IMG/VR virus record: IMGVR_UViG_3300035698_024280
Reading direction: 5' to 3' (one strand)
Source: a virus
DNA length: 64,000 nt
The translations under genes were made by a program, and so were the position numbers. Below, piece after piece: positions 650 to 23,678 of this stretch. The notes below the pieces were generated by a model. It had not been told where the DNA came from. It searched no databases and was given only the letters and a program-made list of their open reading frames with translations. Positions within the stretch are counted from its first letter, which is position 1, and each line of letters begins with the position of its first letter.

Positions 650-670
650 CTTACCTACGACATACACAGG

Positions 671-699
671 AAAGCTGAGCCGAAAGGCTCAGCTTTTTT
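671..699 (+). terminator. Rho-independent terminator after gp18
   Basis: aaagctgagcc-GAAA-ggctcagcttt perfect stem with a GNRA loop, followed by a T-run. Confidence 0.9.
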
Positions 700-774
700 G
701 GTGTATTTAGCTTAACTACACCATTAGTGTAGTCCCCACCCTGACAGGGATAGCAATAACTACGTTAGACCTAA

Positions 775-1365
775 CTAATTACTTATAATTGTTGCATGAG
801 TTATAAAATCATCAACTGCAGTCTCCAAATATGAATATTTACTATCGGATAGACCCTCAATAGTTACTGTATCTTTATTCTCACTTAACGATATAATATT
901 AACAATATCAAATCCCTCAATAGAAATAACAACTCCGGATTTTGGTACAAATTGCCCAGCTTCGTTTTCATCGCAGTATTTATCGAAGAAATCTGTGAAG
1001 GCGCCTGTAGCTATTCCATCAGACTCTTCATTCTCATTGTTTACTTTATATATATCATCAAACACTTGCTCTAAGACACTACCTCGATCTATAGGAGAAC
1101 CAGGGAGACCAGATTGATTAAACCACTCAACTGCGATCTTTATATTTTCATTGTACATATCAATGACAGTCTGCGTATCAGAATATATCATCGCTTTTTT
1201 GAGCATCTGCTGAATATCATTACCAGCATCGATATATGCATCACCAGGGCTATCAGCATTGGTGACAAATATATCTTCTAATATACTATATATTTCATCA
1301 GCTAGTGAGACCTCATTTGATCTCCCATTAAATGCCTCCCAAATTAAATTAGTTTCGTTGTCCAT
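775..1365 (-). CDS. Acidic hypothetical protein, putative head internal protein (N-terminal MDNETNLIWE tag)
   Basis: 196 aa, very acidic; TAAATA late promoter 5 nt upstream; N-terminus shared with the neighbouring gene. Confidence 0.6.
   Translation of the reverse strand: MDNETNLIWEAFNGRSNEVSLADEIYSILEDIFVTNADSPGDAYIDAGNDIQQMLKKAMIYSDTQTVIDMYNENIKIAVEWFNQSGLPGSPIDRGSVLEQVFDDIYKVNNENEESDGIATGAFTDFFDKYCDENEAGQFVPKSGVVISIEGFDIVNIISLSENKDTVTIEGLSDSKYSYLETAVDDFITHATIISN
1336..1365 (-). repeat. 30-nt exact direct repeat, copy 1 (encodes MDNETNLIWE)
   Basis: ctcccaaattaaattagtttcgttgtccat, identical to 1841-1870. Confidence 0.95.
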
Positions 1366-1396
1366 ATTCGTATTTATTAAAATCTTATTATATTAA

Positions 1397-1870
1397 TTAT
1401 CTGCCGGCTTGAGCATTCCTAAAAGCTGTAATATCTATAATATTTTCATCACCGTTTAATAATACATTAAAAGCTGATTTAATCGCTTCATCAGCTTTAA
1501 ATTGTCCCAGATCACTTATAGATAATACATATGCTACTAATTCACTCGCAATTATCTCATCTTCCTCATAAGATCTCGCACTTTCAAATGTTTCTCCATC
1601 TTCGTTCACAGGTGTGTCTGTATCAACCTGGATGCCCTTTAAAAATTCTAATGTAGCAGGATCAGATAGCTTATAAAATTCTTTACCTTCACCTCGTGGG
1701 AGCAAAACTCTTATCTGATTAGAGTTTGGCTGTATAGATATCCAATATTCTCCTAATTTATGCTTTCCGTCAGAGCGACGCTCCGAATTATCACGAATAA
1801 ACGATATAATATCGTCATGTGGTGCATCTCTATTATATGACTCCCAAATTAAATTAGTTTCGTTGTCCAT
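1397..1870 (-). CDS. Acidic hypothetical protein, putative head internal protein (N-terminal MDNETNLIWE tag)
   Basis: 157 aa; TAAATA 6 nt upstream; same first 10 codons as 775-1365. Confidence 0.6.
   Translation of the reverse strand: MDNETNLIWESYNRDAPHDDIISFIRDNSERRSDGKHKLGEYWISIQPNSNQIRVLLPRGEGKEFYKLSDPATLEFLKGIQVDTDTPVNEDGETFESARSYEEDEIIASELVAYVLSISDLGQFKADEAIKSAFNVLLNGDENIIDITAFRNAQAGR
1841..1870 (-). repeat. 30-nt exact direct repeat, copy 2
   Basis: Identical to 1336-1365. Confidence 0.95.
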
Positions 1871-1922
1871 TTATAGTATTTAATGTATTACTACTAAAAT
1901 TTTAAATATTATCAGATAATAT

Positions 1923-2069
1923 TTAACTTCCGATAGTCATTGGTATTACTACAATCCCAATAAATTTTGACATTATATAGTCTATACTAGTAAGAACTTC
2001 GTGGGATGTAATAATAATTAAAAATATAATAGACACATTTAATAGTATTTTTGGGATTTTGTATTTCAT
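1923..2069 (-). CDS. Small hydrophobic membrane protein, 48 aa (not in ORF track)
   Basis: Hand translation gives MKYKIPKILLNVSIIFLIIITSHEVLTSIDYIMSKFIGIVVIPMTIGS. The ATG lies 2 nt after the stop of 2072-2755 and the ORF fills most of the gap. Confidence 0.55.
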   Translation of the reverse strand: MKYKIPKILLNVSIIFLIIITSHEVLTSIDYIMSKFIGIVVIPMTIGS

Positions 2070-2071
2070 GT

Positions 2072-2755
2072 TTAAAAAAAGTTTCGAATTGCAGTAGCAA
2101 ACGCAGCTAATAGCTCTATAAATCTAGGGCCTAGTATTACTGTACCTAATACCATAAGCAGTATCGCAGTAGATTTAGGCTTTTCTGCTGCTGTTTGAAT
2201 AATACGTGATATAGTATTAGACTTAATTTCTTCGATCTGTCCCTCTATATTTGCAGTAACAGCAGTTATTGTAGCGCTCAATATAGCGATCTGACCCATA
2301 ACGTCTCGGCTCAACTGCTCATATGATTGGGTGATAGTTGAATATTCATCTCTTAGCAACTTAACTTCTACTACAAAAAACTCATATTTTCCCTCAGGGG
2401 GGTATCGACGCACAAAAACTTCTACAAATACTGGGGCAGCTGCTTTCGGTATATAAAACTTGCGGATAGTATACTCATTATAATCTCCCCTTACACAAGC
2501 TGCTGCAGCTTCCATGTCAGCTTTTAATGATTCATCTTTTAATGAAAAATCCTCCCAAGTTACAGGGTTATCTTTCCTAGTAAATTCTGGGAGAGAATAT
2601 CCGATAAACTTTTGAAATATCTCATTAGACCATAATACTGCGCCTCCAATATCAGCTATCAGCCACATAGTTGCAGACTTCTCAATAATCTCTGTTGCAA
2701 GATGAGGGTGATGATTAAAAAATGTTTGTAGATGAACGTTTCCCTCTGAATCCAT
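2072..2755 (-). CDS. PAS-domain protein with coiled coil and C-terminal transmembrane segment
   Basis: PAS S-box pattern IIEKSATMWLIADIGGAVLWSNEIFQKFIGYSLPEF...WEDFS...RGDYNEY...KFYIPK...VFVEVFV; C-terminal hydrophobic TAILLMVLGTVILG. Confidence 0.8.
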   Translation of the reverse strand: MDSEGNVHLQTFFNHHPHLATEIIEKSATMWLIADIGGAVLWSNEIFQKFIGYSLPEFTRKDNPVTWEDFSLKDESLKADMEAAAACVRGDYNEYTIRKFYIPKAAAPVFVEVFVRRYPPEGKYEFFVVEVKLLRDEYSTITQSYEQLSRDVMGQIAILSATITAVTANIEGQIEEIKSNTISRIIQTAAEKPKSTAILLMVLGTVILGPRFIELLAAFATAIRNFF

Positions 2756-2823
2756 AAATATTATTTAATCAATAACAGTGTATTACGGTTGAGGTTGCTA
2801 CTAATAAGAAATATCATTATTTA

Positions 2824-3081
2824 CTATACGTTAGATGAGTTCATTACTTTATGAACTCCAGAACCTCTCCCAGTATTTCTACCGTAGGGGTTATACTTTC
2901 GATGATCAGCGAATTGCTCAGGGGTGACTACTTGCATCTCTCCGGCAGTCTTACCACCATAGCACATAACCCCCCTTACCTTCGGTATACTATCAGCGCA
3001 CATAATGCAATAATTATATCCAGCTTCTATACGAGCGCTGTTTACTATTTGAGAGCAATGGCAACATTTCTTATTATTCAT
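2824..3081 (-). CDS. DksA/TraR-type C4 zinc-finger protein
   Basis: CHCSQIVNSARIEAGYNYCIMC fits the CxxC...I...R.EA...CxxC pattern. Confidence 0.65.
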   Translation of the reverse strand: MNNKKCCHCSQIVNSARIEAGYNYCIMCADSIPKVRGVMCYGGKTAGEMQVVTPEQFADHRKYNPYGRNTGRGSGVHKVMNSSNV

Positions 3082-3085
3082 TATC

Positions 3086-3341
3086 TTAGGATTTAAATAT
3101 ATCAGGAGCTTCAGAAGTATCTGACATCTCTCTTACAGCCTGCTTATATAACTCAATCTGTCTTCGATCTGCGATTTCGTCTGCATCATTATTTTTTTTT
3201 AGTTTCTACTGCCTCTATAAAACATCTTAGGTGAGAAGGTCTTTCGGAATAATTAGCCCAAACAGGATTTCCGCAATAAGTGCACGGGGGGCGTGGGAAT
3301 GCAGAATTAAACCGTATTCTAAAATTCTTTAGTAATTTCAT
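3086..3341 (-). pseudogene. Small Zn-finger (CxxC...HxxC) gene interrupted by one extra A in an A9 tract
   Basis: The frame MKLLKN...PCTYCG...SHLRCF...ETKKK stops just after the A9 run (3192-3200). Removing one A gives an 84-aa ORF ending ...EAPDIFKS at 3086, which fills the gap exactly. Confidence 0.65.
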
Positions 3342-3378
3342 TTATAAAATAATTATACAGTGGTTCCGTATATGTTAG

Positions 3379-4356
3379 TTAATTGTTATTAATATACCAA
3401 CTTACAGTATTTTCAATACTCTTATTAAATTTAGTGACTCTTTTCCATCCTAATTCACGAGAAATTTTATTTGCATTAATTGCATATCTTTTATCGTGAC
3501 CGGGCCTATCTGCAATATACTCAATAATACTCGTGCATGGTTTTGCGGTTTGTAAAGATACCTCAAACATAACTCTATTAGCTATCGATAGATTTGTACA
3601 TTCACATTTACCCCCTATATTATATGTTGACCCAGAAACACCTCCTTCAAGCACTCGGATTAAACCATCGCAGTGATCTGTAACATATAGCCAATCTCTT
3701 ATTTGGAGACCGTTTCCATATAAAGGTAAATTTTTACCAGCAATAGCATTTAATATTAACTTAGGTATTAACTTCTCTCTATGTTGACGGGGCCCGAAAT
3801 TATTTGAGCAATTGGTAACAATTGCATCTATGCCATAAGTTCTTGACCAAGATTTTACTAGATGATCCGCAGCCGCCTTAGTAGCAGCATATGGTGAGGA
3901 TGGTCTATACGGTGATAACTCTGTAAACGGGGATTTATTTAAATCTAAATCCCCATATACTTCATCAGTACTGACGTGAATAAGTCTAACACTCCTACCG
4001 GTAGTTTGCTTTAATTCTCTTATGGATTCTAGTATATTATATGTGCCTATAATATTTGAATCTACAAAAGGTTTAGGTGATGCAATTGAATTATCTACAT
4101 GTGACTCGGCTGCTAGGTGAATGATACTATCAATGCCCTTATCATGTAGCAATTCTCTTAATAGTGGCCTCTCAGATATATCACCGACAATGAGAGAGAC
4201 GTTTGATAGCCTACTACACATATTCTCAGCAAACTTAGAGTTGCTAGCATACCCCATCTTGTCTAAGATAATTATTTCGTAATTAGAGTCTGCTAATATT
4301 TGAACTAATGCAGATCCGATAAAACCGGCGCCGCCCGTTACTAATATTTTTTTCAT
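3379..4356 (-). CDS. rfbB: dTDP-glucose 4,6-dehydratase
   Basis: GGAGFIG, HLAAESHVDNSI, STDEVYGDL, PSSPYAATKAAAD, NCSNNFGPRQH.EKLIP, DRPGHD.RYAI. Confidence 0.95.
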   Translation of the reverse strand: MKKILVTGGAGFIGSALVQILADSNYEIIILDKMGYASNSKFAENMCSRLSNVSLIVGDISERPLLRELLHDKGIDSIIHLAAESHVDNSIASPKPFVDSNIIGTYNILESIRELKQTTGRSVRLIHVSTDEVYGDLDLNKSPFTELSPYRPSSPYAATKAAADHLVKSWSRTYGIDAIVTNCSNNFGPRQHREKLIPKLILNAIAGKNLPLYGNGLQIRDWLYVTDHCDGLIRVLEGGVSGSTYNIGGKCECTNLSIANRVMFEVSLQTAKPCTSIIEYIADRPGHDKRYAINANKISRELGWKRVTKFNKSIENTVSWYINNN

Positions 4357-4622
4357 AGACTATCTGACTCTATTGGTGTGTTTATAGCTATAAAATTTAG
4401 CAGTAGCTCCCTATCAGTTATTCTAATATCCTTATGAGGTACCCTCGCAACTTTATTAGATTTATGATCTTGATAACGCTGCCTATTGATACAGTTAGAT
4501 ACAGACATGGTGATGGCTGTATCGCCATAATTATCCTCACCATTTATATCTAATGTAGGCCACGGCTCGTAGAATTTTAAGAATTTAGAATCTCTTTGAT
4601 CTAATAATGCTTTTATATTCAT
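4353..4622 (-). CDS. Hypothetical protein
   Basis: 89 aa; overlaps both neighbours, suggesting coupled translation. Confidence 0.6.
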   Translation of the reverse strand: MNIKALLDQRDSKFLKFYEPWPTLDINGEDNYGDTAITMSVSNCINRQRYQDHKSNKVARVPHKDIRITDRELLLNFIAINTPIESDSL

Positions 4623-5206
4623 TAAAACTTATGAACTTTTTTATCAGTAGATGGCGAGATTGCCTTAGGTATTTCTATAAATAGTACTCCGTTATTAAGG
4701 GTCATACAAAGATCGTCAAGATTAAACTCGGGAGATACAAAGAAGCTTGAAGTTAATTTCTGTTGCGGTATCTTACTTTTTGCAGTGTGATGTTTTATAT
4801 TAAACGAAGAGCTGCAGTTTCGAGTAGCGGATATATCTAAAATACCTGTAGACTTTGTAGTATTTACATTAATCGATGAGCGGATAACCCCAGGTAGATC
4901 AACACTAATAATGAGGTCTTTACTGTCAGTGTAATATGACCTAGATCTAATAGTAAACGTTTCCTGGGACTTTGGTTTAGAGCCGTCGGTTAGGTCTCCA
5001 TTAAAGTGGTTGGGCTGGGCAGATTGACAATCTTCACCAGGGGGTGATTTACGCTCTCGACGATTCGGACCGGCTGTAGTGGTCACTACAGTCCATAAGC
5101 CGGTATTATGCAGTGATTGACAATCACCAGTGTTTCCTAAGTCGGGGTTAGTAGTGTTGAGCCGTTCAAATTCTTTTAGTATATTTTCGTAGTAATCCGT
5201 ATTCAT
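4622..5206 (-). CDS. hsp20: Small heat-shock protein (Hsp20/alpha-crystallin domain)
   Basis: C-terminal LIISVDLPGV..SSINV...GILDISA.R...SFFV...FNLDDL...LNNGVLFIEIPK. Confidence 0.8.
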   Translation of the reverse strand: MNTDYYENILKEFERLNTTNPDLGNTGDCQSLHNTGLWTVVTTTAGPNRRERKSPPGEDCQSAQPNHFNGDLTDGSKPKSQETFTIRSRSYYTDSKDLIISVDLPGVIRSSINVNTTKSTGILDISATRNCSSSFNIKHHTAKSKIPQQKLTSSFFVSPEFNLDDLCMTLNNGVLFIEIPKAISPSTDKKVHKF

Positions 5207-5265
5207 ATTTGTTGTTTGTTACATCTATATTATGATGAGGTTCCGATCTAAGTCCACTGTAAGTT

Positions 5266-5436
5266 TTAATCTTCTGTAAATTCTTCTAAAATATCTTCGA
5301 GTTGTACTGCACAACTTAATACTGCCGCTTCAATTAGTTCAGTATTCTCCATATCTTCACCCATACCAGTAGGTAGCTCATAATCGAACCACTCCTGAGA
5401 TAACTCCGTCAATTTTTTTATTAGTTCTGTCTGCAT
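5266..5436 (-). CDS. Small acidic hypothetical protein, 56 aa (not in ORF track)
   Basis: MQTELIKKLTELSQEWFDYELPTGMGEDMENTELIEAAVLSCAVQLEDILEEFTED; TAAATA 6 nt upstream. Confidence 0.65.
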   Translation of the reverse strand: MQTELIKKLTELSQEWFDYELPTGMGEDMENTELIEAAVLSCAVQLEDILEEFTED

Positions 5437-5501: not shown

Positions 5502-5507
5502 TAAATA
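5502..5507 (+). promoter_or_regulatory. T4-type late promoter core TAAATA (representative of more than 25 sites)
   Basis: TAAATA 5 nt before the ATG at 5513; the same 5-6 nt spacing recurs before most structural genes. Confidence 0.8.
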
Positions 5508-6034: not shown

Positions 6035-6062
6035 ATAATAAAAAAATGACATAAATAGATTT

Positions 6063-7510: not shown

Positions 7511-8254
7511 ATGAGCACGAGTACCCTTCTAGATAAACTTAATGAGATAAATGAGTCGACCACACATAGTATATCTGTACCTACTGCTAAAAAAGAGTTT
7601 GAATTTAGAGGTCTTAATGTAAACCAACAAAAAGAGATAATAAAGACTGCTGCAGATGGCCCGTCAAGTGGTATTACTCTTACAAATGTACTTAATGAAA
7701 TAATAGTAAGCAATGCAAGCGCAGACTATAATTTTTCTATTATTGATAGATACCCTATTATACTAGCGTTGAGGTCTTTGTTCGTTGACGATGTAATCAA
7801 AGTAGCTGGTAATAAATTGAGTATAGCTAAGCACTTAGCTACAGTTACTACTAACTACAACAGCTTATTAGATGGCCTCGTTTTAAAAGATTCAATTGTA
7901 GTTGATGGTATAACTGTACATATTGAGGTACCATCTCTCAATAGAGATATAAAGGTAAATAAAGCTATAGAGAGAGTTAATGAGGTGAATACATCCATAG
8001 GGGACACCATAGGTAATTTGTATATTTATGAAATTGATAAATTTATACAAAGTATAGAGTTTGGAGATGATACATATAATTTTGCTGATGGTATGAGTGC
8101 GTCTGCTAAAAGATCCATAATTGAGGCTATGCCTAGTAGTATAAACAAAGATATTATAGATTTTATCACAAAAACCCGGAAAATCGAGAATTATTACTTA
8201 GATACTGAATTTGGTTCTATAGAAATTGATGCGGCTTTCTTTACTAGTGAATAA
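7511..8254 (+). CDS. Baseplate hub subunit, gp26-like
   Basis: SVPTAKKEFEFRGLNV.QQKEII, FSIIDRYPIILALR, final IEIDAAFF. Confidence 0.65.
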   Translation: MSTSTLLDKLNEINESTTHSISVPTAKKEFEFRGLNVNQQKEIIKTAADGPSSGITLTNVLNEIIVSNASADYNFSIIDRYPIILALRSLFVDDVIKVAGNKLSIAKHLATVTTNYNSLLDGLVLKDSIVVDGITVHIEVPSLNRDIKVNKAIERVNEVNTSIGDTIGNLYIYEIDKFIQSIEFGDDTYNFADGMSASAKRSIIEAMPSSINKDIIDFITKTRKIENYYLDTEFGSIEIDAAFFTSE

Positions 8255-8262
8255 ATAATTAT

Positions 8263-23654: not shown

Positions 23655-23678
23655 GCGTAATATGCTATAAATATTAAT

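What the first reader, a model, noticed from the sequence alone, without database searches (positions are those of the whole stretch)
2072..2755. Late-expressed stand-alone PAS sensor with a C-terminal membrane anchor
Seen: a clear PAS domain, then a heptad-like helix and a hydrophobic C-terminus, with no kinase, GGDEF or HTH output domain. TAAATA lies 6 nt before the ATG, implying late expression. Known: PAS domains sense ligands, redox, oxygen or light and are unusual in lytic phages. The coiled coil plus single C-terminal TM is the layout of XhlA-like lysis proteins. Inference: a signal-gated lysis-timing/holin-like protein, or a decoy that heterodimerises with host sensor kinases.
Basis: partly seen in the sequence, partly recalled or inferred. 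Interest (0 to 1): 0.8.

Follow-up and report, generated by a model that had tools for sequence, protein, structure and literature searches.

The report
Membrane-anchored PAS sensor protein of phage
A large uncultured T4-like phage encodes a small sensor-type (PAS) protein held in the cell membrane by its tail; it belongs to an undescribed phage family whose relatives tend to sit near the genes that burst the host, so it may help time lysis, though nothing has been tested at the bench.

Summary
The minus-strand ORF 2072-2755 encodes a 227-aa protein. It has N-cap helices, a true PAS fold (AF2 pLDDT 94; over 500 Foldseek PAS/LOV hits), a 57-residue amphipathic helix and a conserved C-terminal membrane anchor, with no output domain. 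Pfam misses PAS in this sequence, but 48 of 57 relatives hit PAS models.

It belongs to a family of about 184 clusters, nearly all on uncultured phage contigs. None is in the INPHARED deposited-phage collection (four members tested).

TAAATA 6 nt before the ATG is real. The hexamer sits at -11 to -13 in 22 of 70 window genes, including tail tube and tape measure, so late expression is plausible.

No lysis gene lies near the gene in this window. In relatives, every contig with a recognisable lytic hydrolase has it within 4 kb of the PAS gene (p about 0.003-0.005).

XhlA, holin and releasin membership all fail by sequence. The linker length varies without heptad register.

Best reading (about 0.4): a late, membrane-tethered cytoplasmic sensor that modulates lysis timing. 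The host-kinase decoy idea was not tested.

Earlier notes of this scan report comparable membrane-anchored PAS proteins in lysis cassettes of other phages; I found no shared sequence with them.

The parts
2072..2755 (-). Gene for the 227-aa tail-anchored PAS protein (P0001); stop codon at 2072-2074
   Evidence: ORF list and translation. 184 relatives at E<=1e-3, most 190-250 aa and matched over their full length.
2762..2767 (-). TAAATA hexamer 6 nt upstream of the ATG; candidate T4-type late-promoter core (context ATTAAATA)
   Evidence: Read directly. The same hexamer sits at -11 to -13 in 22 of 70 window genes, including structural genes. The exact T4 octamer TATAAATA is not enriched in the window.
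2681..2755 (-). Residues 1-25: two N-cap helices preceding the PAS core
   Evidence: AF2 model has H3-15 and H17-25.
2354..2680 (-). Residues 26-134: PAS core. Family signature G38 N44 Y53 E57 W67 D80 G90 Y95 K99 Y101 K104 V115 R117 P119.
   Evidence: AF2 secondary structure; Foldseek PAS hits; Pfam PAS hits in relatives; conservation counted in 140 members.
2183..2353 (-). Residues 135-191: one long amphipathic helix (J-alpha-like stalk)
   Evidence: AF2 H135-191. Periodicity of 3.67 residues. The family linker length varies from 67 to 123 residues with no heptad register.
2075..2182 (-). Residues 192-227: conserved Pro-Lys, hydrophobic membrane segment, Gly-Pro-Arg-x-x-Glu, then a short amphipathic C-terminal helix
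   Evidence: Hydropathy; AF2 H193-208 and H211-226; motif conserved in the family, P193 80% and G209 76%.
1923..2069 (-). 48-aa hydrophobic ORF starting 2 nt after the PAS stop codon; possible coupled membrane partner, unproven
   Evidence: ORF list and hydropathy. Public gene callers did not call it. Tightly coupled small downstream ORFs recur in most relatives, and some have a TM segment.

Best explanation
The gene encodes a late-expressed, tail-anchored inner-membrane protein. A cytoplasmic PAS sensor domain (with N-cap helices) sits on a long amphipathic helical stalk, and a single C-terminal hydrophobic segment plus a short amphipathic helix holds it in the membrane. It is a member of an undescribed, almost exclusively phage-borne family. 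The most likely role is accessory control of a late membrane event, namely lysis timing. In that reading the PAS domain reads a cytoplasmic cue (ligand unknown; no LOV cysteine or haem histidine is conserved). By self-association or by binding other small membrane proteins, such as holin-type proteins or the coupled 48-aa peptide, it would advance or delay permeabilisation. This is comparable in logic to antiholins or to the membrane-tethered Mu releasin. Shown: the fold, the architecture, the family, the shared late-type start signal, and the enrichment near lytic enzymes in relatives. Inferred: topology (N-in), dimerisation, sensing, and any effect on lysis.
For: The PAS fold and anchor are shown. 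The family is conserved over its full length, including the anchor motif. The contexts are viral: terminase, portal, tail, RNAP and replication genes. TAAATA at -12 is shared with structural genes in a T4-like phage. Relatives lie near lytic enzymes. A CHAP endolysin is directly upstream in L003/L004. A CHAP endolysin is one gene away on the P0002 contig. An Amidase_2 endolysin is one gene away in L031. In L046 an Amidase_2 endolysin is 1.8 kb downstream with two 2-TM proteins between. In L045 a 2-TM protein, a 1-TM protein, a papain-type peptidase, a lipoprotein and a TM protein lie directly upstream, and the two small TM proteins are conserved in L040. In whole IMG/VR records the only Amidase_2, C1 and S8 hits lie 0.2, 4 and 3.3 kb from the family gene. 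Fisher combination of the distances gives p=0.005 for canonical endolysins and p=0.003 for all hydrolases. A precedent exists for a membrane-tethered cytoplasmic lysis factor: Mu gp25 releasin (PMC9239132).
Against: In this window no endolysin, holin or spanin is recognisable within 10 kb, and tblastn with relatives' lytic enzymes finds nothing in the 64 kb. About half of the relatives' loci show no lytic enzyme nearby; they sit by tail, packaging or sugar-nucleotide genes. No neighbour family is conserved across the whole family. No holin, XhlA or releasin model matches. The stalk length is unconstrained, which speaks against rigid PAS-to-membrane signalling. The statistics rest on few contigs, and counting proteases as lytic enzymes is an assumption. 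One member lies in a Planctomycetaceae chromosome contig without phage hallmarks.
Confidence: 0.4

Rival explanations
1. It is a membrane-localised sensor serving another late or accessory function unrelated to lysis, such as superinfection exclusion, control of virion assembly at the membrane, or defence/counter-defence. In this reading its nearness to lysis genes only reflects the clustering of late accessory membrane genes.
For: In the window it lies in a minus-strand accessory island between the sheath and tube genes, with Hsp20, a sugar dehydratase and small Zn-ribbon-like ORFs. Many relatives sit among tail or packaging genes. No partner is conserved across the family.
Against: Spacing to lytic hydrolases is closer than chance in every contig where one is recognisable. 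There was no hit for the window protein in PHROGs, the only viral library it was scanned against; PADLOC was not run.
Confidence: 0.22
2. It is part of an envelope-glycan module. The tethered PAS protein would regulate or localise phage sugar-nucleotide enzymes that modify host surface polysaccharide or virion glycans.
For: An NAD-dependent epimerase/dehydratase gene lies near the family gene in four independent loci. In the window it is 3379-4356, two small genes upstream. In L049 it is directly upstream. In L009 it is four genes upstream. In L010 it is 5 kb upstream. Glycosyl-, sulfo- and methyl-transferases lie nearby on the P0002 contig and in L047 and L050.
Against: The epimerases are only 25-35% identical to one another and are not always adjacent. 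Most loci have none. No known mechanism links PAS tethers to such enzymes. Both could simply be co-resident accessory genes.
Confidence: 0.13
3. It is a decoy or hijacker of host signalling. The tethered PAS domain would heterodimerise with PAS domains of host membrane sensor kinases or cyclases and block or re-route them during infection.
For: The family PAS is a derived PAS_3-type domain. Its profile matches PAS domains of 600-1500-aa sensor proteins at E 1e-16 to 1e-20 in 13 of 301 Planctomycetota genomes and matches long multi-PAS proteins in the representative search. The membrane tether would place it next to membrane kinases.
Against: The family-specific signature (W67, Y-x-P-K, R-Y-P) differs from the kinase consensus (F-x-D-I-T-H-P-D-D, K-D-G), so recent capture from a host kinase is not indicated. 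The host of this phage is unknown. Late expression would be an odd time for host takeover. No complex prediction could be run.
Confidence: 0.12
4. It is itself the hole-forming holin of this phage: a new class with a large cytoplasmic PAS head and one C-terminal TM segment.
For: It has a single TM segment, a late signal, a coupled hydrophobic 48-aa ORF that could act as an antiholin-like partner, and a size close to that of T4 holin T. T4-like phages scatter their lysis genes (established knowledge).
Against: Relatives inside lysis cassettes coexist with typical 2-TM holin candidates. The hydrophobic run between PK and G is only about 15-17 residues, and the C-terminus is not the charged tail typical of holins. 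No holin family matches.
Confidence: 0.08

Closest known systems
Short PAS/LOV proteins without an effector domain (e.g. PpSB1-LOV 8q5e/3sw1, PF5-LOV 7r5n) and PAS-J-alpha sensors such as YF1 (4gcz)
   Same: PAS core followed by a long C-terminal helix and no enzymatic output. Foldseek aligns 137-207 columns, including the helix.
   Different: There is no flavin-binding cysteine or other conserved cofactor residue. This protein ends in a conserved membrane anchor and is phage-encoded. Its linker length is not register-constrained.
Phage Mu releasin gp25 (DUF2730; Chamblee et al. 2022, PMC9239132)
   Same: A membrane-tethered, mainly cytoplasmic phage protein that controls lysis without being a holin (abstract read).
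   Different: gp25 has an N-terminal TM segment and acts on SAR endolysins. Here the anchor is C-terminal, no DUF2730 match exists, and endolysins next to relatives lack N-terminal hydrophobic segments.
XhlA of Bacillus PBSX-like prophages (PF10779)
   Same: Layout of a helical/coiled N-terminal part plus a single C-terminal TM segment in a lysis-associated protein (established knowledge).
   Different: XhlA has about 90 aa and no PAS domain. No HMM match was found for the whole protein or for the C-terminal halves of 10 members. No XhlB-type holin or endolysin lies next to the window gene.
T4 holin T with antiholins RI and RIII (lysis inhibition)
   Same: Signal-dependent control of lysis timing in a T4-type phage, with lysis genes scattered among late genes (established knowledge).
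   Different: T has an N-terminal TM segment and a periplasmic domain. RI senses in the periplasm. There is no sequence or fold similarity: all top Foldseek hits are PAS.
VqmA-Phage of vibriophage VP882 (PMC8284805)
   Same: A phage-encoded PAS-domain receptor that couples a small-molecule cue to the decision to lyse (abstract listed).
   Different: VqmA-Phage is a soluble PAS-HTH transcription factor of a temperate phage. This protein has no DNA-binding domain and is membrane-anchored.

Membership tests
PAS fold (Pfam clan PAS_Fold) | Five-stranded antiparallel beta-sheet with intervening helices in the order b-b-a-a-a-a-b-b-b | tested here: met
   The AF2 model has pLDDT 94 with E30-34, E39-43, H45-51, H55-59, H75-89, E94-101, E109-118 and E126-133. 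At least 500 Foldseek PDB hits are all PAS/LOV, with target TM up to 0.82.
PAS fold (Pfam clan PAS_Fold) | Significant match to a Pfam PAS model | tested here: inconclusive
   P0001 itself has no PAS hit at E<=1. 48 of 57 aligned relatives hit PAS_9, with best E values of 4e-9 (PAS_9) and 9e-11 (PAS). The family profile hits PDB PAS domains at 2e-8.
Cofactor-binding PAS subtypes (LOV, FixL/DosP haem) | Conserved flavin-adduct cysteine on E-alpha, or haem-ligating histidine on F-alpha | tested here: not met
   There is no conserved Cys or His among the family invariants. C87 occurs in only 35 of 140 members and is otherwise L, V or I.
XhlA (PF10779) | HMM match | tested here: not met
   No hit for the full protein, for 57 relatives at E<=0.01, or for the C-terminal halves of 10 members at E<=5.
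XhlA (PF10779) | Gene adjacent to a holin (XhlB) and an endolysin | tested here: not met
   No endolysin or holin family lies within 10 kb in this phage.
Holins (any class) | Small membrane protein with at least one TM segment and a charged hydrophilic C-terminal tail, encoded next to the endolysin | tested here: not met
   One TM segment is present, but the C-terminus is hydrophobic/amphipathic. There is a 190-residue cytoplasmic head, no endolysin adjacent in the window and no holin HMM hit.
Mu releasin gp25 (DUF2730) | N-terminal TM segment, DUF2730 homology, partner SAR endolysin | tested here: not met
   The anchor is C-terminal. No DUF2730 hit. Endolysins beside relatives have no hydrophobic N-terminus.
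T4-type late promoter | TATAAATA at about -10 of the transcription start, upstream of late (structural) genes | tested here: inconclusive
   The sequence here is ATTAAATA, with 6 of 8 positions matching. The TAAATA core at a fixed -11 to -13 from the start codon is shared by 22 of 70 genes, including tube and tape measure. No transcript data could be obtained.
Tail-anchored membrane protein | Single TM segment within about 30 residues of the C-terminus, no signal peptide, N-terminal domain cytoplasmic | tested here: inconclusive
   The hydrophobic segment at about 195-216 of 227 and the non-hydrophobic N-terminus are shown. Actual insertion and topology cannot be tested with these tools.

The most novel reading that the evidence does not exclude
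Tail-anchored PAS proteins are a widespread, so far undescribed class of phage lysis regulators. A cytoplasmic sensor domain tethered to the inner membrane would tune when holins fire or lytic enzymes are released according to an intracellular chemical or redox cue. That would give even strictly lytic T4-like phages a signal-dependent lysis clock.
Probability: 0.35. Interest if true: 0.8.

Novelty: new variant of a known kind. Interest (0 to 1): 0.62.

Why it matters
Known timers of phage lysis are holins, antiholins, pinholins and the Mu releasin. None of them carries a generic small-molecule or redox sensor domain. A PAS domain wired to the membrane step of lysis would mean that phages read the host's internal state to decide when to burst. 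That bears on burst-size ecology, on phage therapy kinetics and on engineered lysis switches. The family is large (about 184 clusters at 50% identity), is absent from the INPHARED deposited-phage collection (four members tested), and I found no paper describing it. The protein is also small, well modelled and easy to test. Separately, the window suggests that this T4-like phage starts many late genes 5-6 nt after a TAAATA box, which could mean leaderless late mRNAs.

Tried and rejected
- Direct Pfam, PHROGs and PDB sequence searches with the single protein gave nothing useful. The weak OB-fold and HamA hits were below cut-off and were dismissed.
- The single-sequence AF2 model was poor, with pLDDT 52, and was replaced by the alignment-based model.
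- tblastn of four family members against 50,697 deposited phages found no match.
- The search for homologous proteins found only one relative; the exhaustive representative search was needed.
The one metagenome scan that ran gave only one phage type.
- No whole genome is held for the window, and the 195-kb contig record is not searchable.
- The ESM Atlas search on the C-terminal part gave no hit. The Atlas search by shape returned only multidomain PAS proteins.
- I looked for a partner gene conserved across the family. Only subclade-level conservation exists: L002/L046, L033/L047 and L040/L045.
- I tested for heptad register conservation in the PAS-to-membrane linker; none was found.
- The exact T4 octamer TATAAATA is not enriched, and sigma-70-type promoters are not enriched in the island.
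- PHROGs gave no hit for holin-like neighbours of relatives.
- Complex prediction (homodimer) was unavailable on five attempts, so nothing was folded.
- All contigs carrying the gene are 100% identical over the island, so no polymorphism test was possible.

Full report
**Observation.**
The ORF lies on the minus strand at 2072-2755 and encodes 227 residues. Searched alone, it gives no PAS hit in Pfam at E<=1, nothing in PHROGs and nothing in PDB sequences. A single-sequence AlphaFold model is poor, with pLDDT 52.

An exhaustive HMMER search of 1.84 billion representatives finds 184 relatives at E<=1e-3. Most are 190-250 aa and match over their full length. A few hits are PAS repeats inside 1000-2700-aa proteins.

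I aligned 57 members as A1. Of these, 48 hit Pfam PAS_9, and others hit PAS, PAS_3, PAS_4 or PAS_8; the best E values are 4e-9 and 9e-11. The family profile hits solved PAS domains such as MmoS 3ewk (2e-8), 3bwl, NifL and Aer.

With A1 as its alignment, the AlphaFold model reaches pLDDT 94. It shows:
- two N-cap helices;
- the canonical PAS order of strands and helices, residues 30-133;
- one continuous helix, residues 135-191;
- two short C-terminal helices, 193-208 and 211-226.

Foldseek returns at least 500 PDB hits, all PAS or LOV. NifL 2gj3 scores TM 0.81 at rmsd 2.4, and the YF1 alignment extends along the long helix. So the PAS domain is real but divergent.

The long helix is amphipathic. 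Its hydrophobic period is 3.67 residues, a value reached by 27 of 2000 shuffles. The C-terminus is hydrophobic.

**Family anatomy.**
In 140 members of 170-330 residues, fourteen PAS-core positions are conserved above 89%: G38, N44, Y53, E57, W67, D80, G90, Y95, K99, Y101, K104, V115, R117 and P119. No Cys or His is conserved. C87 is L, V or I in most members, so LOV-type or FixL-type cofactor chemistry is not indicated.

The C-terminal module is conserved in layout. It consists of Pro-Lys (P193 in 80%), about 15-17 hydrophobic residues, Gly (G209 in 76%), often Arg and Glu, then an amphipathic helix. This conservation argues that the anchor is functional and not merely greasy.

The distance between P119 and G209 ranges from 67 to 123 residues with no 7-residue periodicity. 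The helix therefore behaves as a stalk of free length. It does not look like the register-keeping signalling helix of PAS kinases.

Compared with PAS domains of Planctomycetota sensor kinases, which match the profile at 1e-16 to 1e-20, the family is a derived PAS_3-type domain with its own signature.

**Where the family lives.**
Four members gave no tblastn hit in 50,697 deposited phages. About twenty independent loci from metagenome and IMG/VR contigs carry phage hallmarks: terminase, portal, tail fibre, tape measure, RNA polymerase beta-prime-like genes, PhoH, RecA and primase-polymerase.

One member lies on a 503-kb Planctomycetaceae contig without phage hallmarks. It is the only full-length member found in 301 Planctomycetota genomes.

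BFVD holds short PAS proteins from uncultured Caudovirales and from Cellulophaga phages. PAS domains in phages are therefore under-studied rather than absent.

**This phage.**
The gene occurs, 100% identical, on at least 24 contigs of up to 195 kb. The window has the following T4-type genes:
- tail sheath, two tube-like genes, tape measure, gp25 and other baseplate genes;
- gp32, clamp loader, family-B polymerase, DnaB-like helicase and a RecA/UvsX-like protein.

The PAS gene sits in a minus-strand accessory island at 775-5436, between the sheath and tube genes. The island also holds a small Hsp20, a dTDP-glucose-4,6-dehydratase-like enzyme and small Cys-rich ORFs. A strong hairpin terminator at 667-700 closes the island.

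No endolysin, holin or spanin is recognisable within 10 kb. Lytic enzymes taken from relatives find nothing in the 64 kb.

**Expression signal.**
TAAATA at 2762-2767, followed by 6 nt and the ATG, is correctly read. The hexamer begins at -11, -12 or -13 in 22 of 70 genes. All other offsets from -60 to -6 together hold only 8 occurrences. The extended consensus is A-[A/T]-TAAATA.

Carriers of the motif include the tube gene, the tube paralogue, the tape measure and eight further genes of the structural block. The four island genes at 5436, 2755, 1870 and 1365 carry it too.

The T4 late promoter is TATAAATA, with the transcription start about 6 nt after the box (established knowledge). Here that start would coincide with the A of the ATG, which suggests leaderless late mRNAs. 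This is inference: no transcript data could be obtained, and the exact octamer is not enriched.

**Function.**
No neighbour is conserved across the whole family. Three associations recur.

1. Lytic enzymes.
   - A CHAP endolysin lies directly upstream in L003/L004.
   - A CHAP endolysin lies one gene away on the P0002 contig.
   - An Amidase_2 endolysin lies one gene away in L031.
   - In L046 an Amidase_2 endolysin lies 1.8 kb downstream, with two 2-TM proteins in between.
   - In L045 a papain-type peptidase is flanked by 2-TM, 1-TM and lipoprotein genes. The two small TM proteins are conserved in L040.
   - Subtilisin-type peptidases lie near the family gene in L001 and L048.
   - I searched nine whole IMG/VR records for seven hydrolase families. 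The only hits lie 0.2, 4 and 3.3 kb from the family gene.
   - Combining distances against contig lengths gives p=0.005 for canonical endolysins and p=0.003 for all hydrolases. These are small samples, and treating proteases as lytic enzymes is an assumption.
2. A tightly coupled small downstream ORF, with a gap of -17 to +6 nt, is present in most loci. It has a TM segment in the window (48 aa), L002, L046, L010 and L011, but not in L009, L033/L047, L048 or L001.
3. NAD-dependent epimerase/dehydratase genes lie nearby in four loci, including the window.

The endolysins beside relatives have no hydrophobic N-terminus. Separate holin candidates coexist with the PAS gene in those cassettes. The PAS protein is therefore more likely an accessory regulator than the holin or a releasin of SAR endolysins.

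**Comparison with known systems.**
The closest analogies of logic are the Mu releasin (PMC9239132), XhlA and the T4 antiholins. None is matched by sequence, and their defining features are not met.

VqmA-Phage is the known PAS-based phage sensor tied to lysis, but it is a soluble transcription factor. Full-text searches found no paper that describes a membrane-anchored PAS protein in phage lysis.

Earlier AI notes of this scan describe membrane-anchored PAS proteins in or near lysis cassettes of other phages. They share no detectable short words with this family's members. I treated them as leads only. The neighbourhood evidence reported here was gathered independently.

**Verdict.**
Late expression is plausible. 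A lysis-related role is the best-supported guess (about 0.4), but it rests on relatives and not on this locus. The XhlA and holin labels fail membership tests, and the decoy idea is untested.

The thing itself is a new, well-defined family of tail-anchored PAS proteins of phages. I file it as a new variant of a known kind (phage lysis or membrane accessory factors, PAS sensors), with moderate to high interest.

Noticed in passing
window-wide, e.g. 5502-5507(+), 6052-6057(+), 8252-8257(+), 23668-23673(+), 2762-2767(-): TAAATA starts at -11 to -13 from the start codon in 22 of 70 genes, mostly structural ones; the consensus is A-[A/T]-TAAATA-N5/6-ATG. With T4-type late promoters the transcript would start at the ATG, so leaderless late mRNAs are possible. 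Few genes show a Shine-Dalgarno sequence.
   Followed up: partly
window 775-1365(-) and 1397-1870(-): Two adjacent genes of unknown function (196 and 157 aa) share an almost identical 13-residue N-terminus (MDNETNLIWE...) but diverge completely afterwards. Both carry the TAAATA start signal.
   Followed up: partly
window 775-5436(-): A minus-strand accessory island is inserted between the tail sheath and tail tube genes. It holds Hsp20 (4622-5206), a dTDP-glucose 4,6-dehydratase-like enzyme (3379-4356), and Cys-rich 85-aa and 50-aa ORFs (2824-3081, 3189-3341).
   Followed up: partly
window 667-700: A strong 15-bp-stem hairpin with a T-run lies between the end of the sheath gene and the end of the minus-strand island. 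It is a likely terminator, possibly bidirectional.
   Followed up: no
window 3379-4356; L049:5005-5964; L009:4615-6759; L010:3571-4509: NAD-dependent sugar epimerase/dehydratase genes recur near the PAS-anchor gene in four independent loci. They are 25-35% identical to each other.
   Followed up: partly
IMG/VR records behind L034, L036 and L053 (169, 69 and 64 kb; 92-100% complete): These near-complete phages carry a family member but give no hit to Amidase_2, Phage_lysozyme, CHAP, SLT, Peptidase_M15_4, Peptidase_C1 or Peptidase_S8. Their lytic enzyme is unrecognised.
   Followed up: partly
L045:2891-5813 and L040:69-1624: A module conserved at subclade level lies upstream of the PAS gene: a 2-TM small protein, a 1-TM protein of about 155 aa, then an enzyme of about 280 aa. 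In L045 the enzyme is a papain-family peptidase, followed by a lipoprotein-like 297-aa protein. This could be a protease-based lysis cassette.
   Followed up: partly
P0002 contig and L046:6077-8502: The closest relatives of the window protein sit in phages that encode a multisubunit-RNA-polymerase beta-prime-like protein (RNA_pol_Rpb1_5, with an intein in L046). That is a different phage type from the T4-like window phage.
   Followed up: no
window, structural block; exact genes not mapped: The Pfam tally of window proteins shows two Mtd_N (major tropism determinant N-terminal) matches, a tail collar domain, QueC and several glycosyltransferases. The Mtd_N matches could mark variable receptor-binding proteins.
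   Followed up: no
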